Shown here piece after piece: positions 4,654 to 34,294 of a stretch of 39,293 bases of DNA; position 1 is the stretch's first letter, and every line of letters starts with the position of its first letter. Origin of the DNA: Escherichia phage phiv142-3; the sequence record MN187550.1. One strand, 5' to 3'. The position numbers were made by a program, and so were the translations under genes. A model generated the notes under the pieces. It did no database searches. It was not told where the DNA came from and saw only the letters and a program-made list of their open reading frames with translations.

Positions 4654-4757
4654 GTTAAATCTCCAGATAGTCGCAGCACCCGTTGCGCCGCATATCTGGT
4701 TATTCTATTACCTGAAAAACCACATATGGATAGAAAGGCTGTAAATATGAATAGATA

Positions 4758-4772
4758 TTACCTTTCAGGTAA
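4758..4772. promoter_or_regulatory. operator-like palindrome TTACCTTTCAGGTAA (site S1)
   Basis: Perfect 5-bp inverted arms TTACC/GGTAA around a 5-bp centre, in the divergent region between tailspike and the small antirepressor-like gene; flanked by palindromic TTTGCAAA. Confidence 0.6.
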
Positions 4773-4809
4773 TTTGCAAAACGTGCTGGATAGCAAACAA
4801 ATTATTTGA

Positions 4810-4829
4810 TACTGTATAAATATACAGTT
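4810..4829. promoter_or_regulatory. LexA (SOS) box TACTGTATAAATATACAGTT
   Basis: CTGT-N8-ACAG with AT-rich centre, near-identical to the E. coli LexA consensus; sits about 20 bp upstream of the ATG at 4849, inside the spacer after a TTGATA -35-like hexamer. Confidence 0.6.
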
Positions 4830-4848
4830 ATTGCATGGAGAAGATAAG

Positions 4849-5106
4849 ATGCAGCAGTATCACTATCCACTGGAAGACGGATTTACCGAAAGGATTCACA
4901 CGCCGGGAGGCGTCAGGTCACTGGTGGAAGGATCGCACTTGATGAAATTACTCCGGGATCTCGATAAGGATGGATTTAATGTCGATGGCCCACTTGCCGA
5001 ACTGACTGCACTGATTAACTACGTCACCAGCTCACAGATGTCTATGCGGGATCTGCAAACACATCTCGACTATTGTGCCGAACAATTACGAAAACAAACC
5101 AGATAA
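4849..5106 (+). CDS. small protein paralogous to the C-terminal domain of the downstream antirepressor
   Basis: 85 aa from the ATG at 4849 (GGAG 8 nt upstream); the track starts at a TTG at 4831. Residues ...LMKLLRDLDKDGFNVDGPLAELTALINYV...RDLQTH align with ...[29 protein letters not shown]...RDIQTH of the 218-aa protein. Confidence 0.55.
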   Translation: MQQYHYPLEDGFTERIHTPGGVRSLVEGSHLMKLLRDLDKDGFNVDGPLAELTALINYVTSSQMSMRDLQTHLDYCAEQLRKQTR

Positions 5107-5109
5107 GGT

Positions 5110-5152
5110 TTGCAATTACCAAATGGAGTGCTTATATTTACCTTTGCGGTAA
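5110..5152 (+). promoter_or_regulatory. promoter (-35 TTGCAA, 17-bp spacer, -10 TATATT) fused to operator S2 TTACCTTTGCGGTAA (5138-5152)
   Basis: Sigma70-like hexamers read from sequence; the last T of the -10 is the first T of the palindrome. Confidence 0.5.
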
Positions 5153-5242
5153 ATTTACATCGCACTCCTCTTGTGCCATAGTAATCGGGCACTGGCAAAA
5201 TCCAGTGCCGGGATTGGTCTCCCGGATTACTAAGTGGCGCAT

Positions 5243-5265
5243 ACCACGCCAGACGTGGTTTTTTT
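5243..5265 (+). terminator. intrinsic terminator (ACCACG-loop-CGTGGT plus T7 tract) in the antirepressor leader
   Basis: GC-rich hairpin followed by TTTTTTT; preceded by two more hairpins (about 5188-5226); about 160 nt upstream of the antirepressor ATG. Confidence 0.5.
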
Positions 5266-5423
5266 ATGCGTATAGCACAGTCATGCCAGAATTATGGTGG
5301 GCTGAATGGGGGTCCGAAAGGACGCCGGTACCACTTAGGCCGGTAAGACCAACTCCGTTCAGTTCACCACCATCTGATTGGTCTCAGCGGTGGTGATGTA
5401 ATTCGCTAAGTGGAGACGCCATC

Positions 5424-6080
5424 ATGAACGCTCAACTCATCCCCGTATTCAACGGCACTATATCTAACGAAACAGCCCTACTTTGTAATGCCCGCGATCT
5501 GCACGCTTTTTTAGGTGTTAAAAAGGTGTTTGCAGCATGGATTACAAATCGCATATCAGAATACGAATTCATTGAAAATCAAGACTATATTTTGCTTTCC
5601 AATTTGGGAAAGCAAACATCTGGTAGAGGCGGCCACAACCGCAAAGAGTACCACCTCACCCTTGATACAGCCAAAGAGCTGGCGATGGTCGAGCGTAACG
5701 AAAAAGGTCGTCAGGTGCGACGCTACTTCATTGAATGCGAGAAACGTTTAAGACAACAAGAAACAAAAGTGGAGAAGGTCTTGTCAGGCTTCATGCCCGC
5801 CATTATGGAGGCGATCAAGCTGGAAGACAAAAAAGAATACAGCGCCCCACTGAAGCCCGGCTACCGCAGCCTGATTCATTCTCCGTCTGGTGTTCTCGGC
5901 CTGACGGAGAACTCACTGCTGATGAATCTGCTGAACAAGTTACAGGAAGACGGGCACGATGTATCGGGCGCGGCAGCGGAGCTGACCACCATGTTCTGCT
6001 ACATCGTCGGTGTGAGCAAATGCCTGCGTGATATCCAGACCCACGCGGAGTACATCAACGACAAGGCAGGGTTCTTCTGA
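5424..6080 (+). CDS. antirepressor (AntA-like N-terminal domain plus C-terminal domain)
   Basis: 218 aa; N-terminal region (...[10 protein letters not shown]...[17 protein letters not shown]...) resembles phage AntA/AntB antirepressor domains; GGAG RBS about 9 nt upstream. Confidence 0.7.
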
Positions 6081-25861: not shown

Positions 25862-26454
25862 TGATTACCATCCTGACGTTCTTTGAGTCGCTTCCTGGCT
25901 GCCGCTATGCGATCAGCAATTGTCACATTCACATTAACATCCAGGCGTTCTTTGAATGCATTGACGTCGACGTGCTTACCAATCAGTTCGAGGTTCTTCA
26001 CCTTGTCAGGCCATTTAATTTTTTTGAGAATTGTCTCTATCGAATCCTCGTTCATGTTCATGATGGTCGATGACAGATCAAAGCCACTAAGCGTAGTGCG
26101 CCAGATTTTCGGCCACTCGCGGATTGGCTTAAGGCTCCCATCGTCATTGAGGATATCAATCACGTCCATCTGGTCGATCTCCACCAGGCGCATGAGAACG
26201 TAATCGGCACTGACGCGCATTCGTTTGTTGCGCTCCTCCATCAACTCGGCAATCCGTTTTTGAATGCGTTCATCGCGCATCATGACACTGGCTTTAACTG
26301 CCGCTGTATTTGGGGAGAATCCTGCGTTAATCGCTGCCTGAGTCTGGTTTTCAGGCGTTTTGATGTATGACTGGCAATAAGCCTCCTGCATTGCGGTTAG
26401 TGGCTTAAATTGCGTTGATTTGCGTTTATAGGTTTTAGGTTCAGCAGGCATCAT
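25858..26454 (-). CDS. terminase small subunit
   Basis: ORF 25858..26532; start moved to an internal ATG (MMPAEPK...) preceded by GGTGG, because the N-terminal extension would cover operator site S11 and a terminator. Confidence 0.6.
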   Translation of the reverse strand: MMPAEPKTYKRKSTQFKPLTAMQEAYCQSYIKTPENQTQAAINAGFSPNTAAVKASVMMRDERIQKRIAELMEERNKRMRVSADYVLMRLVEIDQMDVIDILNDDGSLKPIREWPKIWRTTLSGFDLSSTIMNMNEDSIETILKKIKWPDKVKNLELIGKHVDVNAFKERLDVNVNVTIADRIAAARKRLKERQDGNQ

Positions 26455-26471
26455 AACCACCATGGTAATTG

Positions 26472-26486
26472 TTACCGTTGTGGTAA
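26472..26486. promoter_or_regulatory. operator-like palindrome TTACCGTTGTGGTAA (site S11) about 20 bp upstream of the terminase small-subunit start
   Basis: Perfect TTACC/GGTAA arms; between an intrinsic terminator and the terS RBS. Confidence 0.5.
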
Positions 26487-26496
26487 TAGCACCATG

Positions 26497-26523
26497 CAAA
26501 ATAAAGCCGCCATAGTTGGCGGC
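26497..26523 (-). terminator. intrinsic terminator in the late-operon leader (GCCGCC-loop-GGCGGC plus TTTATTTT on the minus strand)
   Basis: Hairpin and T tract read on the minus strand between the zinc-ribbon gene and terS. Confidence 0.55.
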
Positions 26524-26564
26524 AGTATTCAAAACCCATCAAATTCATCATGCATAATCTACTC

Positions 26565-26576
26565 GTGACATGTCAC
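26565..26576. promoter_or_regulatory. 12-bp palindrome GTGACATGTCAC (third copy) overlapping the stop of the zinc-ribbon gene
   Basis: Perfect palindrome about 40 bp upstream of the leader terminator. Confidence 0.45.
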
Positions 26577-26920
26577 ACTATTAATTTAGTTTCATGCCAG
26601 CCTTTAGTCACCCAGCATTGCGAGTCACCATTACACGGGCATGAATTAACGGGAACTTTCTCGCCGCACTTACCGCAACGTTTTCTGCTAATCGATTTTA
26701 TACGCCCGCGCACGCGTGCATCATCCTGGCGGATCAGTAACGCTATATACTCCCCAAATTCGTAAGGCGCACGCCCGGGGCGACGCGTGGCACAGTTACG
26801 CTCCAGCATTTCAATTTCCTGAGCATCAAGCACAATCTCCAGCTTACGCACACCAGATGCAGCTTGTCTTGCTCTCTGAGCGGCTTTGCGCTCTGCGGGG
26901 GATTTAGCCACGAATCGCAC
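26573..26920 (-). CDS. small zinc-ribbon protein, candidate late-gene regulator
   Basis: 115 aa with C-terminal Cys cluster CGKCGEKVPVNSCPC; GTG start in the track; directly upstream of the palindrome-terminator-terS leader. The regulatory role is inferred from position only. Confidence 0.45.
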   Translation of the reverse strand: MRFVAKSPAERKAAQRARQAASGVRKLEIVLDAQEIEMLERNCATRRPGRAPYEFGEYIALLIRQDDARVRGRIKSISRKRCGKCGEKVPVNSCPCNGDSQCWVTKGWHETKLIV

Positions 26921-29553: not shown

Positions 29554-29898
29554 TCAGAAATCTTCGATGTTCCAGCCACCACCTGCTTTCTTTGGTTTAA
29601 CCGTTACCCCGATGATTCGGAACGGATACTGATCTGCGGCGACTTTGGTTTTCACCCTGGCGTCGTCGGTCCAGAAACCTTTCACTTCGTGCAGTTCCAT
29701 CTCGCCGGTGGCGAGCATCACAGCGAAATCTGGCGTATAGAACGTGTTATTAGCTAACCGCAGCTTGATACCCTCGAATCGATACCAGGCGATTTCCCCT
29801 GCACGTTTACGCTGCTCAAGGTGCTGGCAATACGCAGATTCTGTTTTGTTCATCTGGCCTGTTTTGAGTCGACCAAGAGCCTGCATCTGTTTTCTCAT
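29554..29898 (-). CDS. small PD-(D/E)xK-type nuclease-like protein
   Basis: 114 aa with ...YTPDFAV...ELHEVKG... matching the D...ExK nuclease signature; first gene after an operator-flanked promoter. Confidence 0.5.
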   Translation of the reverse strand: MRKQMQALGRLKTGQMNKTESAYCQHLEQRKRAGEIAWYRFEGIKLRLANNTFYTPDFAVMLATGEMELHEVKGFWTDDARVKTKVAADQYPFRIIGVTVKPKKAGGGWNIEDF

Positions 29899-29901
29899 GA
29901 T

Positions 29902-29978
29902 TTACCTCTGAGGTAATTAAAAACCACATAAGACACGAAATCAATAGAGTTTAGAATATTTTATTACCTGACGGGTAA
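29902..29978 (-). promoter_or_regulatory. minus-strand promoter (-35 TTGATT, 17 bp, -10 TTTAAT) bracketed by operators S5b TTACCTCTGAGGTAA (29902-29916) and S5 TTACCTGACGGGTAA (29964-29978)
   Basis: Hexamers read on the minus strand; the two palindromes are 62 bp centre-to-centre; S5b overlaps the -10/+1 and the RBS of the nuclease gene. Confidence 0.55.
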
Positions 29979-30015
29979 TTATTTGAGCGTAAAAAAATGC
30001 GCTATCGCGCTGGTA

Positions 30016-30816
30016 TTACTTGATAAATCCTGCCGCCTTTCCCCGCCTGTATTCCTCCATCAGCCACTGCGCCGGTGTTATTCCCCCAAGGGTGGCGGCG
30101 TTAGGCATGCACCCGAAACTTCGCCCTGGTGGATGGTAAACGTCTCTCCCTGTGTCCGGAGGTGTACTCATGGGTTCTGGCTTTGCCTGTATGCTGATCA
30201 CCGGATCGGGTATCTGCTGTCCGGAAGCCACCTTTTTCGCCCAATCATCGAGCAGCCTGCGCGCGTGTTTCTCAACCTCAATCTCGCTAAGCTGGCGCTG
30301 ATACATTGCACGGCGGGTATCACATACGACCCAGTACATAACCGGATGTCGCCACGGGAATCTTTCGGGACCACCAGGATATAAACTTTTTTCCTTGCTG
30401 TACCGGTGAAACTCCGCCATCACATCGTCAATGGTGACGCCAAGAACCATCTTGCTGTCTTTACACCACTTGATAAATTGCCCTGGCGACGGCCAGAACG
30501 GAGATTCACTGGCGCGGGCGTGGCGCATACCAGCAGAAACCTGTTCACGGGTTCGGATCCCCCCTTCGGCAAACGCAGCAATCCACTGCTGTTTTGCAGC
30601 AACTTCCTGCTCTGGCGTCTTCAGGTTGGTTGCCACTGCCGCCGGAAACAGTTGTTTCAGCTGTTTAAAAAGGGCATCAACAAGCCTCTCTGCTGACATG
30701 TTCACCACATTGTCATTGTTGACGTATTGATGCTCATAACCTGACATGCGAGAAAGGGCTTCTCCGTCACGGTTTTGTATCGCGGTAAAAACGTTGTTCA
30801 CAAGAAATCCTCCCAT
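30016..30816 (-). CDS. replication protein P-like (helicase loader)
   Basis: 266 aa; segment ...EQVSAGMRHARASESPFWPSPGQFIKWCKD... closely parallels lambda P ...EQVNAGMRVARRQNRPFLPSPGQFVAWCRE... (from memory). Confidence 0.75.
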   Translation of the reverse strand: MGGFLVNNVFTAIQNRDGEALSRMSGYEHQYVNNDNVVNMSAERLVDALFKQLKQLFPAAVATNLKTPEQEVAAKQQWIAAFAEGGIRTREQVSAGMRHARASESPFWPSPGQFIKWCKDSKMVLGVTIDDVMAEFHRYSKEKSLYPGGPERFPWRHPVMYWVVCDTRRAMYQRQLSEIEVEKHARRLLDDWAKKVASGQQIPDPVISIQAKPEPMSTPPDTGRDVYHPPGRSFGCMPNAATLGGITPAQWLMEEYRRGKAAGFIK

Positions 30817-31613
30817 GCTTCAGGGCTGTTCCAGTGCGGAACGTTGTTATCAGGTAATGTTGATTGCTTCTGTCTGCTAATCTGCAGCCGCCTTGCCAGC
30901 TTCTGCTCCCACTGTGCCTGATGGTATGCCTTACCCTCAGCCATCCAGTAAATTCTGAACTCTGCAAGTTCCTGTGCCGTTGGCAGACTGTCCAGGTAGA
31001 TCCCCTGCAATGAGCTTTTCCGAAGAAAGTCATCTGATGGCTGCCATTGTTCATGCATGACAAATTTGCCTAATTGCCCTGGCCCACCAGGAGGAACAAA
31101 GTTATTCATCACGGCGTTGTTTGCGCCTGGGTCATGATGCACAGAATCCCCGTTTTTTGTCCTGCTCTCCCTCTCTTGGTTAAATGACTGGTTATATGAC
31201 TGGTTCTGGATCCCGTTTTTGGGATCATTCAACATCCCGTTTTTGGGATCATTCAACATCCCGTTTTTGGGTATATTCCCGTTTTCGGTAACATTACCGT
31301 TTTCGGGTTCATTGCCCCCCTCTCGGTTGCCTTTAATGTTCCCGTTTTTGGTTATATTAAGAGAGAAAACCCGCACTCTTTTTGTCGCTCCCTTTCTCTC
31401 CCCGGTATCTGAAATAAGCCCCATTTTCATGAGCGATATAAGTCCGGCCTGCACGGTTTTTTTATTCAGGCAAGTGTCTTTAACGAGGCGTTCTATGCTG
31501 GGGTAGCAGAGGTTATATTCATCGGCTCTGTCAGCCATCGAGAGCAGTATGAGCTTTAATGACGAGCTACCTGGATCTGTCTCCCAGGCCCAATCTGTTG
31601 CATGTCTGCTCAT
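30798..31613 (-). CDS. replication initiator O-like protein
   Basis: 271 aa; N-terminal HTH-like region, central Asn/Gly-rich repeat (ENGNVTENGNIPKNGMLNDPKNGMLNDPKNG) encoded by DNA iterons, C-terminal domain preceding the P-like gene. Confidence 0.65.
   Translation of the reverse strand: MSRHATDWAWETDPGSSSLKLILLSMADRADEYNLCYPSIERLVKDTCLNKKTVQAGLISLMKMGLISDTGERKGATKRVRVFSLNITKNGNIKGNREGGNEPENGNVTENGNIPKNGMLNDPKNGMLNDPKNGIQNQSYNQSFNQERESRTKNGDSVHHDPGANNAVMNNFVPPGGPGQLGKFVMHEQWQPSDDFLRKSSLQGIYLDSLPTAQELAEFRIYWMAEGKAYHQAQWEQKLARRLQISRQKQSTLPDNNVPHWNSPEAWEDFL
31210..31358. repeat. replication-origin iterons inside the O-like gene
   Basis: Two perfect tandem 24-mers ATCCCGTTTTTGGGATCATTCAAC (31210-31257) plus 3-4 degenerate copies of CCCGTTTT(T/C)GG; each core is itself an inverted repeat (TCCC...GGGA). 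Confidence 0.65.
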
Positions 31614-31628
31614 GATTAATCTCCGCTA

Positions 31629-31829
31629 TCAGCTTGAATGTTGTGGGGAGGAATTAATCATGATCTGCTTAATCTCTGCCCTGATACGACGGTTTGATTC
31701 CATGGTGCACTCAACACAGTGTCCGTTGTAAACCCAGCGTTCACTGTCATGTCCGTGCTTACATGTTTTCCCGGTGTAGTAGCGTTTAAGTCCGCGCTTT
31801 GCGGCATCAATACGTGTAATGATTTCCAT
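31629..31829 (-). CDS. small Cys/His-containing protein at the cII-like position
   Basis: 66 aa from internal ATG (MEIITRID...); CxH...HCxxC pattern; follows a tR1-like terminator. Confidence 0.4.
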   Translation of the reverse strand: MEIITRIDAAKRGLKRYYTGKTCKHGHDSERWVYNGHCVECTMESNRRIRAEIKQIMINSSPQHSS

Positions 31830-31908
31830 GGTAAGCCCTGTTATTAGTATTGGGATTACGGTTATTTTGTGCTGACACAAAAAAAGATCAACCATATTTG
31901 GTTTTTTA

Positions 31909-31957
31909 TTACCTTTGAGGTACGAATAGATATGAAAAGACCGCCGGATGGCGGTCT
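31909..31957 (-). terminator. tR1-like intrinsic terminator after the cro-like gene, plus imperfect operator S6 (TTACCTTTGAGGTAC, 31909-31923)
   Basis: Hairpin AGACCGCC-loop-GGCGGTCT (31938-31957) followed on the minus strand by TTTTC; operator-like site 15 bp further downstream. Confidence 0.5.
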
Positions 31958-31978
31958 ACAGAGGGTTGTGGCTGGATA

Positions 31979-32209
31979 TCATGAGTAGAAGAAGTATGCC
32001 AGTTCTGCTTTTGAGCGCAGCCATTGTCTTGATTTACAGGCTTTAAAAAGCCCATCCATCAATACCTTACCTGGCATTTTGCGCTTACCTGTTAAGTGAG
32101 TCTGGATATAGTGACTCGTCGTTCCGGCTTCCTGTGCGAAGGCTTCACGCTCATCCGGAGTAAGTGCAAGCCAGTGCTTTTTGAAATCGAAATGTCCGTT
32201 ATCGCTCAT
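31979..32209 (-). CDS. Cro-like HTH regulator
   Basis: 76 aa with HTH-like segment ...REAFAQEAGTTSHYIQTHLTGKR...; divergent from the repressor gene across the operator cluster. Confidence 0.55.
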   Translation of the reverse strand: MSDNGHFDFKKHWLALTPDEREAFAQEAGTTSHYIQTHLTGKRKMPGKVLMDGLFKACKSRQWLRSKAELAYFFYS

Positions 32210-32234
32210 AGCTATTGCCTGATATTTATTTCAG

Positions 32235-32308
32235 ATAATAAATATTCACCTATAAGGTAACAAAAATCAAGGATAGTTACCCATGAGGTGCATTTACCTG
32301 TTGGGTAA
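32235..32308. promoter_or_regulatory. divergent switch region with three operator palindromes and the cro-side promoter
   Basis: O1 TCACCTATAAGGTAA (32246-32260), O2 TTACCCATGAGGTGC (32277-32291), O3 TTACCTGTTGGGTAA (32294-32308). Minus-strand promoter -35 TTGTTA (32263-32258) and -10 TATTAT (32240-32235) with O1 inside the spacer. Confidence 0.6.
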
Positions 32309-32363
32309 TATTGCTTTAAATTGAATCATCTTCTGATTCAGATATGAGGCGATTTTCCAGAAA

Positions 32364-32948
32364 ATGAAAAGTATCCAGGACGTCCGCAGGCAAAATCTCA
32401 ACGACTTGATCGACCGTGAATTCAATGGTGTTCAGACGCGGATGGCTGAAAAACTTGGAACTCAGGCAAATCTGGTAAACCGCTGGGCTCTTGGCAAGAA
32501 GGTTATCGGCGACCAGGTTGCGCGAAAAATTGAAGCTGCCGCCAATAAACCCCGTAACTGGCTTGATATCGATCGCTCGCTTTCTCAGGAAGGTTTTCAG
32601 CCTGTCGGCCCGAGTGATATAGGTCAGCTGGCTGCTCACAACCTGGAACGCTGGATGAGCGAAAGCCGCGACCTTTCAACGCAGGGAAAACTACACCGCG
32701 CATCCGGCGTCGCCCAGGTGACAATCAGCCGCCTGTTAAACAATGAGGTCAGCGTTTCCATTTCCACCCTGGAGAATGTTGCATCCGCATTCGGGCGTCA
32801 TGGCTATGAATTACTGATTCACCCGCACGACCCTGCGACTATCAACTATGACCGCTCGCGCTACGCATTGTTACCCGAAACCGAGAAAGCAAAGATCGAA
32901 AGTTACATTGAATTTGTCATCAACCAGAACGAAAAAAACAAACAATAA
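32364..32948 (+). CDS. immunity repressor, tandem-HTH type without a recognisable autopeptidase domain
   Basis: 194 aa; two XRE-like HTH segments (...QTRMAEKLGTQANLVNRWALGKK... and ...LHRASGVAQVTISRLLNNEV...); no Ala-Gly/Ser...Lys S24-like motifs seen; divergent from cro-like gene. Confidence 0.65.
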   Translation: MKSIQDVRRQNLNDLIDREFNGVQTRMAEKLGTQANLVNRWALGKKVIGDQVARKIEAAANKPRNWLDIDRSLSQEGFQPVGPSDIGQLAAHNLERWMSESRDLSTQGKLHRASGVAQVTISRLLNNEVSVSISTLENVASAFGRHGYELLIHPHDPATINYDRSRYALLPETEKAKIESYIEFVINQNEKNKQ

Positions 32949-32968
32949 AATCATATTTTTCAGTAAGT

Positions 32969-32993
32969 AAGCCGCCTTATGGCGGCTTTTTTA
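32969..32993 (+). terminator. intrinsic terminator after the repressor gene (AAGCCGCC-TTAT-GGCGGCTT plus T tract)
   Basis: Hairpin and T tract about 20 nt after the stop codon. Confidence 0.65.
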
Positions 32994-33005
32994 TTGCCTG
33001 TTTGA

Positions 33006-33082
33006 TTACCTAACGGGTAATTTTTTTAACTCATATCTATTGACACCAAACCAGATACGCATAATTATTACCTCAACGGTAA
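33006..33082 (+). promoter_or_regulatory. promoter (-35 TTGACA 33040-33045, -10 AATTAT) bracketed by operators S8 TTACCTAACGGGTAA (33006-33020) and S9 TTACCTCAACGGTAA (33068-33082)
   Basis: Consensus -35 hexamer; S9 fused to the -10; S8 and S9 are 62 bp centre-to-centre, the same spacing as S5/S5b. Confidence 0.6.
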
Positions 33083-33101
33083 CAGACCGAGGTAACAAAT
33101 T

Positions 33102-33263
33102 ATGCAGTGGAAAATCATCAACGGTTGGTACTGCGTTACTGCATGCGGATTCATGAGCTGGAAGTTCCGCACCTTACAGGAAGGCATTAAGTGGGCTTTC
33201 GTCAGCAAAGAAGCTCGCGATGTGGCCAACTATAACGAGATATGGGAGGAGGTTAGCAAATGA
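33102..33263 (+). CDS. hypothetical 53-aa protein, first gene of the rightward operon
   Basis: ATG with GAGGT RBS; MQWKIINGWYCVTACGF...; stop overlaps the next start (ATGA); below the ORF-track size cut-off. Confidence 0.4.
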   Translation: MQWKIINGWYCVTACGFMSWKFRTLQEGIKWAFVSKEARDVANYNEIWEEVSK

Positions 33264-34294
33264 GTGAATTATCAATCATCGAAATCACACCAGATATGGC
33301 ACCAAGAATTTACGTTGAAAAAGGACTGGAAAAGTTTCTCGAGCAGATCCGTGAAGGTGTTAATGAAGTGCCTGACATTAGCACAGACAAAGGCAGAAAG
33401 CGCATTGCATCTCTGGCTGCGAAGGTTTCAAGAAGTAAAACAGCGGTAGAAAAACCAGGACGTGATTATCTGAAACGCCTGAAAGAACAGCCGAAAGTAG
33501 TTGAAGCAGAGTTACGACGCTTCGTAACCGAATGCGATCGGCTTCGTGATGAAGTACGCCGCCCACTCACCGAGTGGGAAAATGCTGAGAAATTACGCAC
33601 TGAAGCACTGCAACAACGCCTGACAAATTTGCGAGCACTGGCTGACGTGATCGATCTCTCCGGAAACTACTTGCCATCAACTGATATTCAGGAACGAATT
33701 CAAGAGGCTAAATCAGTAGCACTTGATGAGAGTTGGCAGGAGTATGCAGCAGAAGCTGGAGTAGCCAAGGATTCAACCATCCAGAAACTGGAAGAATCAC
33801 TCGCAGTAGCTCAAAAACGCGAGCATGAAGCCGCTGAGCTGGAGAGACTTCGCAAAGAAGCGGAGGAAAAAGCGCGCATTGAGCGAGAAGAGAATATCCG
33901 CCGGGAAGCTGCTGAACAGGCCAGGCTCGAAGCTGAACAAAAAGCGAAAGCTGAAATTGATGCTGCGGCACGCCTGGCGGCGGAAGAGAAAGCACGTGCT
34001 GAAGTAGCAGAACGTCAGCGAATTGAAGCAGAGCAGCGTGCACGACGCGAAAAAGAAGAAGCCGTTGCCGAGGAACGCCGACGCCAAGAGGAGGCAGAAA
34101 AAGCCCGCATTGAAGAACAGAAGCGTATCGCCGACGAAGAAGCGCGCCGAGCTGCGGATAAAGAGCATCGCCGTACAGTTAACCGCAGAGTAATCGCAGA
34201 TCTGATAGCCCAAGGCATTCCCGAAGAATTCGCGCAGAAAGCAATGTTGGCTATCGCTGGCGGCAAAGTGCAGGACGCGTATATCAAATATTGA
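33260..34294 (+). CDS. conserved phage protein with long TolA-like charged coiled coil
   Basis: 344 aa; GGAGGAGG RBS; C-terminal half dominated by E/A/R/K heptad-like repeats; upstream of the exonuclease/RecT pair. Confidence 0.6.
   Translation: MSELSIIEITPDMAPRIYVEKGLEKFLEQIREGVNEVPDISTDKGRKRIASLAAKVSRSKTAVEKPGRDYLKRLKEQPKVVEAELRRFVTECDRLRDEVRRPLTEWENAEKLRTEALQQRLTNLRALADVIDLSGNYLPSTDIQERIQEAKSVALDESWQEYAAEAGVAKDSTIQKLEESLAVAQKREHEAAELERLRKEAEEKARIEREENIRREAAEQARLEAEQKAKAEIDAAARLAAEEKARAEVAERQRIEAEQRARREKEEAVAEERRRQEEAEKARIEEQKRIADEEARRAADKEHRRTVNRRVIADLIAQGIPEEFAQKAMLAIAGGKVQDAYIKY

What the first reader, a model, noticed from the sequence alone, without database searches (positions are those of the whole stretch)
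31909..32363. Cro-like gene followed by a tR1-like terminator and an isolated operator copy
About 22 nt after the cro-like stop there is a strong minus-strand hairpin plus U tract, then operator copy S6, before the replication genes. No N-like arginine-rich antiterminator is evident in the expected position (the first rightward-operon gene is a 53-aa non-basic protein). How transcription reaches the O-like and P-like genes is therefore unclear: leaky termination, a second promoter, or an unrecognised antitermination mechanism.
Basis: inference. Interest (0 to 1): 0.45.

Follow-up and report, generated by a model that had tools for sequence, protein, structure and literature searches.

The report
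Terminator, then replication-gene promoter, in phiV10-like phage
In this phiV10/epsilon15-type temperate phage the small Cro-like gene ends at a conserved hairpin terminator, and the replication genes behind it most likely have their own conserved, repressor-guarded promoter, so no lambda-N-type antiterminator is needed; this is an ordinary feature of a known phage group.

Summary
The window is a near-complete phiV10/epsilon15-like podophage (Uetakevirus), 98% identical to phiV10 here. On the minus strand a Cro-like gene (32209..31979) is followed after 21 nt by an 8-bp GC-rich hairpin plus UUUUC (31957..31930). The phiV10 GenBank record already annotates this as a putative rho-independent terminator. 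Fourteen nt further lies an operator copy (31909-31923, one mismatch to TTACC-N5-GGTAA).

No N-, Q-, nut- or put-like element was found. In 15 diverse relatives and 79 close ones, the terminator is followed by an almost invariant TTGAT(C/A), a 15-18 nt spacer that varies in sequence, and nAAAAT, 31-35 nt before the next gene. This is the footprint of a sigma-70 promoter ("P2").

S6 sits about -59 from P2, where the upstream operator sits (about -62) in two other promoters of this genome, each flanked by two operators. Operators follow terminators at four module boundaries. The genome has 10 perfect operators against about 0.04 expected.

Best reading: terminator-insulated modules, each silenced directly by an SPC32H-type repressor. 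The second promoter is inferred, not shown. Low novelty.

The parts
32364..32948 (+). Repressor (Rep), 194 aa, two HTH domains; homolog of Salmonella phage SPC32H Rep
   Evidence: PDB 5D50 E=4e-42 over residues 1-190; Pfam HTH_3 and phrog_8
32246..32308 (.). OR-like operator cluster between rep and the cro-like gene: 32294-32308 (perfect), 32277-32291 (2 mismatches), 32246-32260 (1 mismatch)
   Evidence: the same three-site layout is present in all 14 relatives
32235..32263 (-). PR-like promoter for the cro-like gene (TTGTTA-17-TATTAT), with operator 32246-32260 in its spacer
   Evidence: consensus scan; PWM 11.8 bits
31979..32209 (-). Cro-like 76-aa HTH protein (phiV10 p41 / epsilon15 gp39 family)
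   Evidence: phrog_35 'transcriptional repressor' E=8.7e-13; AF2 model pLDDT 82, five helices; best but non-significant Foldseek hit is the YdaS N-terminal domain, TM 0.60; DNA binding not tested
31930..31957 (-). Intrinsic-type terminator: stem-loop 31957..31938 plus U-tract UUUCAUAU
   Evidence: annotated 'putative rho-independent terminator' in phiV10 DQ126339.2; a hairpin is present in 14/14 relatives, 42-48 nt before the -35
31909..31923 (.). Operator copy S6 (minus-strand reading GTACCTCAAAGGTAA); centre about -59 relative to the inferred P2 start
   Evidence: positionally conserved in relatives, always imperfect: the promoter-proximal half GGTAA is invariant and the distal half varies
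31890..31903 (.). Palindrome AACCAAATATGGTT abutting the -35; function unknown
   Evidence: outer CC/GG conserved, inner positions vary freely among close relatives
31864..31891 (-). Inferred sigma-70 promoter P2: -35 TTGATC (31891..31886), 16-nt spacer, -10 CAAAAT (31869..31864); expected start near 31857
   Evidence: -35 invariant and -10 nAAAAT in 15/15 diverse genomes, with a 15-17 nt spacer that varies in sequence; top PWM site at the same aligned position in 14/15; kept across the TL-2011b mosaic junction; 75 TTGATC + 4 TTGATA in IMG/VR relatives, spacer 16-18. No transcript data.
31629..31829 (-). 66-aa Zn-ribbon protein (phiV10 p42 / epsilon15 gp40 family), first gene of the replication unit
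   Evidence: phrog_1081 E=1.8e-42; the domain also occurs inside genes annotated HNH/endonuclease VII in other phages
30016..31613 (-). Replication genes: O-like initiator (31613..30798, iterons about 31200-31350) and lambda-P-like helicase loader (30816..30016)
   Evidence: Pfam DnaT/HTH_36 and Phage_lambda_P E=9e-57; phrog_1032, phrog_109
29902..30010 (-). Next module boundary: weak hairpin GCGC-GAUA-GCGC + U7 (30010..29991), then promoter P3 (TTGATT-17-TTTAAT) flanked by perfect operators 29978..29964 and 29916..29902, then the DUF1064 gene
   Evidence: terminator annotated in phiV10; architecture conserved in 11 genomes
32969..33082 (+). Plus-strand module boundary: rep terminator (32969-32988), then PL-like promoter TTGACA-17-AATTAT (33040-33068) flanked by perfect operators 33006-33020 and 33068-33082 (62 bp apart)
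   Evidence: conserved in 14 genomes

Best explanation
The Cro-like gene is a one-gene transcription unit. It starts at the repressor-controlled PR-like promoter and ends at an intrinsic-type terminator 21 nt after its stop codon.

The replication unit (Zn-ribbon protein, O-like, P-like) is transcribed mainly from its own sigma-70 promoter, P2. P2 has -35 TTGATC at 31891..31886 and -10 CAAAAT at 31869..31864, and its -35 starts 46 bp downstream of the terminator stem. Operator copy S6 is the upstream Rep operator of P2, centred about -59. This matches the upstream operators (about -62) of the two other Rep-flanked promoters in this genome, PL-like and P3.

The SPC32H-type Rep tetramer would therefore silence each module directly in the lysogen. 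When the antirepressor removes Rep, the modules fire independently, so no N-like antiterminator is needed. Some read-through from the cro promoter probably adds to P2 transcription.

What is shown: the sequence elements, their conservation, the Rep homology, and the absence of detectable N/Q/nut/put. What is inferred: promoter activity of P2, termination efficiency, and Rep binding at S6 with its effect.
For: - The hairpin is conserved in all 15 diverse Uetakevirus genomes at a near-constant distance from the downstream block. Changes keep pairing: GCCGCC/GGCGGC becomes GCCACC/GGTGGC in L016, and only wobble-compatible stem changes occur among close relatives.
- Downstream, TTGATC and nAAAAT are invariant in 15/15, while the 15-17 nt between them varies in sequence and length.
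- Among 79 IMG/VR relatives the spacer is 16-18 nt because of a variable T-run. Four carry TTGATA, a change toward the consensus.
- TL-2011b switches to a different replication module inside the spacer yet keeps TTGATC-16-CAAAAT.
- P2 is the top PWM site at the same aligned position in 14/15 genomes. Its score (9.1-10.3 bits) is similar to P3 (9.3).
- The layout 'operator, A/T-rich stretch, -35, 16-17 nt, -10, TACC' parallels PL-like and P3, which are conserved in relatives.
- Operators follow terminators at four module boundaries: rep/PL-like, cro/P2, P/P3, and regulator/terS. A promoter-like site is identified at the first three but not at terS.
- There are 10 perfect operators genome-wide. 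The epsilon15 record annotates such sites as repressor-binding sites across the genome.
- Rep is a homolog of the solved SPC32H Rep, described as a DNA-binding tetramer (PMC9638917).
- No N/Q family hit in the proteins scanned: the early-region proteins in Pfam and PHROGs, with partly different sets in NCBIfam and a second PHROGs scan. No arginine-rich-motif ORF in a real gene, no boxA, no Rfam hit.
- No strong intrinsic terminator lies inside the PL-like operon or between P2 and the end of the P-like gene.
Against: - No transcript-end or transcript-start data exist for any member.
- P2 is a modest promoter (4/6 + 4/6). Its PWM score alone is only about the 85th percentile of the best scores in random 215-nt windows of this genome, and it fell below the consensus-scan threshold. 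The case rests on conservation.
- Unlike PL-like and P3, P2 has no good promoter-proximal operator. The TACC/AACC after the -10 varies freely, so it is unclear how Rep at -59 alone would repress it.
- S6 is never a perfect operator, and its distal half is degenerate in BUCT554, Buttiauxella and Scandinavium.
- The T-run after the -35 and the CC-N6-GG palindrome before it are conserved, and a plain promoter model does not explain them.
Confidence: 0.6

Rival explanations
1. Leaky termination is the main route. The hairpin is a partial terminator or attenuator, and the replication genes are expressed chiefly by read-through from the cro promoter. The conserved downstream block then serves something other than initiation.
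For: The U-tract is short in this phage (UUUUC, then AUAUCU). It is poor in the Salmonella, Citrobacter and Klebsiella clade (UCCUUCC, UCCUGCC), where stems are also weaker at -9.8 to -11.3 kcal/mol. The epsilon15 record does not annotate a terminator here, although it annotates others. P2 is only a moderate consensus match.
Against: This does not explain why TTGAT(C/A) and nAAAAT stay invariant at promoter spacing while the spacer between them changes in sequence and length. It also does not explain their survival across a mosaic junction, or why an operator sits at the same relative position as in PL-like and P3.
Confidence: 0.2
2. S6 belongs to a plus-strand promoter that is antisense to cro. 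This would be a lambda-PRE-like establishment promoter reading through cro toward rep, with S6 as its -10-proximal operator, dependent on an unknown activator that binds the adjacent palindrome.
For: The composite 'CCAnATAnGG, 7 nt, TTACC operator' occurs at the -10-proximal operators of PL-like (33051/33068) and P3 (29924/29902). It also occurs at S6 when S6 is read on the plus strand (31892/31909) (repeat D2). In Klebsiella and Pseudocitrobacter relatives the hexamer in register is AATTAT, identical to the PL-like -10; in Tyrion it is AATAAT (derived). The location, downstream of cro and pointing at the repressor gene, is that of lambda PRE (established knowledge).
Against: There is no -35 (AAAAAG). 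The in-register -10 is TTTTAT in this phage and in 7/15 genomes, and the critical A at -11 is present in only 6/15. The PWM scan finds no conserved plus-strand site. The palindrome's inner bases vary freely among close relatives, and the motif is missing from the PL-like spacer of the Salmonella clade. No CII homolog was found.
Confidence: 0.1
3. An unrecognised antitermination system, either a protein without homology to N/Q or a cis-acting RNA, lets polymerase from the cro promoter pass this terminator.
For: Several early proteins have no known function: the 53 aa phrog_898, the 101 aa phrog_856, and the 344-aa coiled-coil ORF. A second terminator sits just before the late genes (26523..26506), right after a 115-aa 'transcriptional regulator'. 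Absence of homology is not absence of function.
Against: No N, Q, Nun, boxA/boxB or put-like signal was found in any search. A conserved promoter after the terminator makes antitermination unnecessary. The PL-like operon has no internal intrinsic terminator that would call for an N function.
Confidence: 0.07

Closest known systems
phiV10 (DQ126339.2) p41-terminator-p42 region and the epsilon15/SPC32H immunity region (genus Uetakevirus)
   Same: 98% DNA identity to phiV10 across 31500-33250. The gene order is the same: rep, divergent cro-like gene, hairpin, Zn-ribbon gene, replication genes. The very hairpin is annotated as a putative rho-independent terminator in phiV10. The TTACC-N5-GGTAA palindromes are annotated as repressor-binding sites around the epsilon15 genome. 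The repressor is homologous to the solved SPC32H Rep.
   Different: Neither record annotates the operator copy between the cro-like gene and the next gene, nor any promoter there. This window also carries a 344-aa ORF in the plus-strand early operon that phiV10 lacks.
Lambda pR-cro-nutR-tR1-cII-O-P early right operon
   Same: Same order of functions: repressor gene divergent from a small HTH 'cro', then a terminator, a small gene, and an initiator with internal iterons plus a lambda-P-family loader.
   Different: Lambda tR1 is Rho-dependent and is overcome by N acting at nutR (established knowledge). Here the terminator is an intrinsic-type hairpin. There is no N homolog, boxA or boxB. A separate promoter with its own operator follows the terminator. 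The repressor is a two-HTH, antirepressor-controlled tetramer rather than a LexA-like CI.
HK022 put-RNA (N-independent) antitermination
   Same: A lambdoid-style early region that lacks an N protein.
   Different: No put-like RNA was found by Rfam at gathering or permissive thresholds. The RNA between the cro promoter and the terminator is simply the cro coding sequence. The evidence favours re-initiation, not antitermination.

Membership tests
Intrinsic (Rho-independent) terminator | G+C-rich stem-loop directly followed by a U-rich tract on the transcribed strand | tested here: met
   8-bp stem (6 G-C), tetraloop, dG -14.5 kcal/mol, tail UUUCAUAUCU; z = -3.3 against shuffles. The U-tract is short (four U counting the closing pair).
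Intrinsic (Rho-independent) terminator | Placed just after a stop codon and conserved as a structure in relatives | tested here: met
   21 nt after the cro-like stop. A hairpin is present in 14/14 diverse relatives with pairing-preserving changes. The RNAalifold covariation term was negligible because the clades were misaligned by 1-2 columns.
Intrinsic (Rho-independent) terminator | Transcripts end there in vivo or in vitro | not testable with these tools
   Needs Term-seq or in vitro transcription.
Lambda tR1/nutR/N antitermination module | N-family protein (arginine-rich motif) encoded as the first gene of the opposite early operon | tested here: not met
   The 53-aa first gene is phrog_898 (unknown function) and near-neutral. 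No N/Q hit in the proteins scanned with Pfam, PHROGs and NCBIfam. The only arginine-rich ORFs are out-of-frame artefacts.
Lambda tR1/nutR/N antitermination module | boxA/boxB nut site between promoter and terminator | tested here: not met
   boxA-like matches occur at chance frequency, and none lies in 31938-32235 (minus) or 33075-33300 (plus). No Rfam match.
Lambda tR1/nutR/N antitermination module | Rho-dependent termination | not testable with these tools
   The element has intrinsic-terminator anatomy. Rho dependence cannot be judged from sequence here.
SPC32H/epsilon15-type Rep operator | 15-bp palindrome TTACC-N5-GGTAA | tested here: met
   S6 = TTACCTTTGAGGTAC, 9 of 10 specified bases. 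The family is far above chance: 10 perfect sites against about 0.04 expected.
SPC32H/epsilon15-type Rep operator | Cognate Rep encoded by the same genome | tested here: met
   The 194-aa protein matches PDB 5D50 at E=4e-42 over its full length.
SPC32H/epsilon15-type Rep operator | Positional conservation next to a promoter in relatives | tested here: met
   Exactly 17 nt separate GGTAA from the -35 in all 15 genomes. However, the distal half-site is degenerate in 3 of them.
SPC32H/epsilon15-type Rep operator | Bound by Rep | not testable with these tools
   Needs EMSA or footprinting. The primary SPC32H and epsilon15 papers were not available in the library.
Sigma-70 promoter (P2) | -35 and -10 hexamers with 16-18 nt spacing | tested here: met
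   TTGATC-16-CAAAAT, 4/6 + 4/6, with A at -11 and T at -7. PWM 9.1 bits, similar to P3 at 9.3. It is below the 9/12 threshold of the simple scan.
Sigma-70 promoter (P2) | Hexamers conserved while the spacer drifts (phylogenetic footprint) | tested here: met
   The PL-like and P3 promoters, used as controls, show the same pattern.
Sigma-70 promoter (P2) | A primary transcript 5' end about 7 nt downstream of the -10 | not testable with these tools
   No transcriptome data for this phage group were found in the library.
HK022 put RNA antitermination | Two-stem-loop put RNA downstream of the early promoters | tested here: not met
   No Rfam match in 29800-33400 at E up to 5 other than chance-level hits to terminator hairpins.

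The most novel reading that the evidence does not exclude
P2 may be more than a plain promoter. It could be a delayed-early, factor-dependent promoter. The conserved CC-N6-GG palindrome abutting its -35 also sits directly upstream of the -35 of the promoter-like site at 5109-5138 ahead of the isrK/C4-like RNAs and ant, and next to operators at 4720. This palindrome would be the binding site of a phage-encoded regulator, either the Cro-like protein or the Zn-ribbon protein. Rep bound at S6 would bridge to the OR operators through its tetramer. Under this reading, this phage group replaces the lambda N/Q antitermination cascade with a cascade of terminator-insulated, individually regulated promoters.
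Probability: 0.15. Interest if true: 0.45.

Novelty: new member of a known kind. Interest (0 to 1): 0.22.

Why it matters
It removes an apparent puzzle. A lambdoid-looking early region with a terminator but no N protein does not imply a hidden antitermination mechanism here. The sequence points to a modular design in which one antirepressor-controlled repressor guards a separate promoter after each terminator. For annotation of phiV10/epsilon15-like phages, which are used as reporter and biocontrol phages, it supplies a testable promoter for the replication genes and an unannotated operator. Otherwise it is routine phage regulatory anatomy.

Tried and rejected
1. N/Q/Nun-type proteins. Scans of the early-region proteins against Pfam and PHROGs, and of partly different protein sets against NCBIfam and a second PHROGs run, gave no antiterminator family. 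The arginine-rich-motif scan returned only out-of-frame ORFs.

2. nut- or put-like RNA. Rfam at gathering and at E up to 5 gave nothing relevant. boxA pattern matches were at chance level and none lay in the leaders.

3. Dam/SeqA control through the GATC inside the -35. This was weakened because four close relatives have TTGATA and GATC frequency in the genome is ordinary.

4. A second-regulator motif, CCAnATAnGG. It is enriched (19 against 7.7) and sits at fixed spacing to some operators. But its inner bases vary freely among near-identical phages, and it is absent from the PL-like spacer of the Salmonella clade. It is left as unexplained.

5. A plus-strand PRE-like promoter using S6. It is kept as a minor rival because the -10 is not conserved.

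6. IHF and DnaA boxes in the conserved block. By eye these are only partial matches, and I did not pursue them.

7. RNAalifold covariation for the hairpin. It was uninformative because the clades were misaligned, so I replaced it with per-sequence folding.

8. Primary literature on SPC32H Rep/Ant (PMC4983836, PMC3807360) and the epsilon15 genome (PMC2698709). None is held in the library. Anything I say about these papers beyond PMC9638917's summary comes from the GenBank annotations or from memory.

9. Sequence search of the PDB with the Cro-like and Zn-ribbon proteins gave no significant hits.

Full report
**What the window is.** The region 31500-33250 is 98% identical to Escherichia phage phiV10 and its close relatives. 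It is 76-78% identical to Enterobacter phages Tyrion and BUCT554. The window (39,293 bp) is essentially a whole genome of the genus Uetakevirus (the epsilon15/phiV10/SPC32H group).

**Gene layout around the finding.**
- Plus strand: a 194-aa two-HTH repressor (32364-32948), a strong terminator (32969-32988), and a promoter TTGACA-17-AATTAT (33040-33068).
- That promoter drives a 53-aa ORF, a 344-aa coiled-coil ORF, a 101-aa ORF, an exonuclease, RecT, an AlpA-like protein and a PerC-like activator.
- Minus strand: a promoter-like site (32263..32235), a 76-aa Cro-like HTH protein (32209..31979), the hairpin, the operator copy, a 66-aa Zn-ribbon protein (31829..31629), an O-like initiator with internal iterons (31613..30798), and a lambda-P-family loader (30816..30016).

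**Check of the observation.**
- The hairpin is AGACCGCC-AUCC-GGCGGUCU (31957..31938), followed by UUUCAUAUCU. It starts 21 nt after the stop codon.
- Its stem is -14.5 kcal/mol, and the 61-nt context folds better than shuffles (z = -3.3).
- The phiV10 GenBank record annotates exactly this element as a 'putative rho-independent terminator' between p41 and p42.
- Operator copy S6 (31909-31923) matches TTACC-N5-GGTAA with one mismatch.
- The window holds 10 perfect and 5 one-mismatch copies of this palindrome, against about 0.04 and about 1.2 expected (plus arithmetic). S6 is therefore not a chance match, but it is not 'isolated' either.
- Perfect copies are at 4758, 5138, 6153, 23656, 26472, 29902, 29964, 32294, 33006 and 33068.
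- The epsilon15 record already marks such palindromes as repressor-binding sites in front of terS, the portal region, the tailspike, the early-left operon and the gene after the replication module. It does not mark the site homologous to S6.

**The repressor and the 'cro'.**
- The repressor is a full-length homolog of the crystallised Rep of Salmonella phage SPC32H (PDB 5D50, E = 4e-42).
- SPC32H Rep is described as binding DNA as a tetramer and being disassembled by a tetrameric antirepressor (PMC9638917).
- The window also carries the matching Ant gene (5424-6080, phrog_377). Upstream of it are a LexA box and isrK/C4-like RNAs.
- The Cro-like protein hits phrog_35.
- Its single-sequence AlphaFold model (pLDDT 82) is a five-helix HTH. 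The best PDB match, which is not significant, is the YdaS N-terminal domain (TM 0.60).
- It is 'Cro' by position and fold only. Its DNA target is unknown.

**No antiterminator.**
- None of the early proteins scanned hits an N, Q or other antiterminator family (Pfam and PHROGs on the early-region proteins; NCBIfam and a second PHROGs scan on partly different sets).
- The only arginine-rich ORFs are out-of-frame artefacts.
- boxA-like strings occur at chance frequency and not in the relevant leaders.
- Rfam finds nothing put- or nut-like.
- The phiV10 and epsilon15 records list no antiterminator either.
- The plus-strand early operon contains no internal intrinsic terminator, and neither does the stretch from 31857 to the end of the P-like gene. 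An N function is therefore not called for.

**What follows the terminator.** I aligned the interval from the cro stop codon to the next gene in the window, six phages (Tyrion, BUCT554, epsilon15, SPN1S, Klebsiella BUCT711, TL-2011b) and eight prophages. The prophages come from Citrobacter, Pseudescherichia, Kluyvera, Buttiauxella, Pseudocitrobacter, Scandinavium and Klebsiella. Cro-like identity in this set falls as low as 58%.
- All have a hairpin (-9.8 to -15.4 kcal/mol) that ends 42-48 nt before an invariant TTGATC.
- Stem changes keep pairing, for example GCCGCC/GGCGGC to GCCACC/GGTGGC in Scandinavium.
- The U-tract is good in the E. coli and Enterobacter clade but poor (UCCUUCC, UCCUGCC) in the Salmonella, Citrobacter and Klebsiella clade.
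- After the hairpin, every genome has an operator-like site whose promoter-proximal half GGTAA is invariant.
- Exactly 17 nt separate that GGTAA from TTGATC.
- A 15-17 nt spacer follows, unconserved apart from a T-run next to the -35.
- Then comes nAAAAT, and the start codon lies 31-35 nt further on.
- TL-2011b diverges from the window inside the spacer, switching to a different replication module, yet keeps TTGATC-16-CAAAAT.

Among 79 usable IMG/VR relatives:
- 75 have TTGATC.
- 4 have TTGATA, which is closer to the consensus.
- The spacer is 16, 17 (most common) or 18 nt because of a variable T-run.

Further points from the scoring and the controls:
- A simple sigma-70 PWM puts its top site at this aligned position in 14 of 15 genomes, at 9.1-10.3 bits. 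P3 scores 9.3, PL-like 12.5 and the cro promoter 11.8.
- On its own the score is unremarkable, about the 85th percentile of the best scores in random 215-nt windows. The argument rests on the footprint: hexamers fixed, spacer free.
- The two control promoters, PL-like and P3, show the same footprint in the same genomes.

**Architecture shared with other promoters.**
- PL-like reads: operator, 19 nt A/T-rich, TTGACA, 17 nt, AATTAT, operator.
- P3 (minus strand, 29978..29902) reads: operator, 19 nt, TTGATT, 17 nt, TTTAAT, operator, then the start codon of the DUF1064 gene.
- In both, the operators are 62 bp apart, and this spacing is kept (62-63 bp, 61 in one prophage) in the relatives where both sites were found.
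- P2 reads: S6, 17 nt A/T-rich, TTGATC, 16 nt, CAAAAT, then (T/A)ACC.
- S6 thus occupies the upstream-operator position (about -59 against about -62), but the promoter-proximal operator is missing or degenerate.
- On the rightward (minus-strand) path the same boundary pattern recurs: cro, terminator, S6/P2; P-like gene, weak terminator, operators/P3; and a 115-aa regulator, terminator (26523..26506), two operators, terS.
- The plus strand has rep, terminator, operators/PL-like.
- I read this as terminator-insulated modules, each under direct Rep control. That explains why no antitermination cascade is visible.

**Rivals.**
- Leaky termination very likely contributes, particularly where the U-tract is poor. 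It does not explain the conserved promoter footprint.
- A plus-strand, PRE-like promoter using S6 as its -10-proximal operator is suggested by a composite 'CCAnATAnGG, 7 nt, operator' shared with PL-like and P3. Some relatives have AATTAT or AATAAT in register. However, there is no -35, the -11 A is present in only 6 of 15 genomes, and no conserved plus-strand PWM site exists.
- A hidden antitermination factor cannot be excluded by sequence, but nothing supports it.

**Unexplained residue.**
- The T-run after the -35 and the palindrome AACCAAATATGGTT before it are conserved in outline.
- The palindrome also abuts the -35 of the promoter-like site at 5109-5138 that precedes the isrK/C4-like RNAs and ant.
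- Its inner bases vary freely, so I cannot assign a binding factor.
- It is also unclear how Rep at -59 alone would repress P2. Bridging by the Rep tetramer to the OR operators (324-341 bp away in different genomes) is possible but untested.

**Verdict.** The terminator is already annotated in phiV10, the operator family is annotated in epsilon15, and the repressor family is structurally characterised. The useful new inferences are an unannotated operator copy and a conserved candidate promoter for the replication genes. Experimental mapping of transcript ends would settle it.

Noticed in passing
window 4700-6080: An immI-like antirepressor module. It contains a canonical LexA box TACTGTATAAATATACAGT (about 4810-4828) and a small ORF. 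It also contains Rfam isrK (5189-5265, 67.7 bits) and C4 antisense RNA (5290-5374, 61.2 bits), followed by Ant (5424-6080, phrog_377). Perfect Rep operators lie at 4758, 5138 and 6153. This combines SOS control, a P1/P7-type antisense RNA and Rep operators in one switch.
   Followed up: partly
window 26440-26590 (minus strand): Entry to the late genes. A promoter-like site GTGACA-18-CATGAT (26576..26547) overlaps a perfect 12-bp palindrome at the end of a 115-aa 'transcriptional regulator' (phrog_536). It is followed by a strong hairpin terminator (26523..26506), two adjacent Rep operators (26486..26454) and terS. I saw no good sigma-70 promoter between the operators and terS. The geometry recalls lambda pR'-tR', but there is no Q homolog. 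How late genes are turned on is not evident.
   Followed up: partly
window 37837-39086 (minus strand): The integrase appears split into two adjacent ORFs (122 aa at 39086..38718 and 294 aa at 38721..37837). Both hit phrog_1 integrase. In phiV10 it is a single 416-aa gene. This is a frameshift: either a pseudogene or a sequencing error.
   Followed up: no
window 33260-34294: A 344-aa ORF with a long Glu/Arg/Ala-rich coiled-coil (phrog_1376, unknown function) sits in the early-left operon. It is absent from phiV10, where the 53-aa gene homolog is followed directly by the 100-aa gene.
   Followed up: no
window 31200-31350 and 31886: Origin-type iterons inside the O-like gene (CCCGTTTTTGGGATCATTCAACAT repeats) carry GATC sites (31209, 31223, 31247). 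The -35 of P2 also contains GATC in most relatives (TTGATA in 4 of 79). A link to Dam/SeqA is possible but not supported.
   Followed up: partly
whole window: The tetranucleotide CTAG is almost absent: 7 observed against about 153 expected from base composition.
   Followed up: no
window 31938-31957, 32969-32988, 26506-26523: Three terminators at module boundaries use nearly the same stem (GCCGCC...GGCGGC) with different loops. This suggests duplication of a terminator cassette or a shared constraint.
   Followed up: no
window 31886 / L020 (TL-2011b) 2820-2840: The mosaic junction between two alternative replication modules falls inside the P2 spacer, immediately after TTGATC. The promoter therefore doubles as a recombination boundary between modules.
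   Followed up: partly
window 31629-31829: The 66-aa Zn-ribbon protein at the lambda-cII position is a domain that tblastn also finds inside genes annotated HNH endonuclease, endonuclease VII or homing endonuclease in many unrelated phages (184 records in all). Its role here is unknown.
   Followed up: partly
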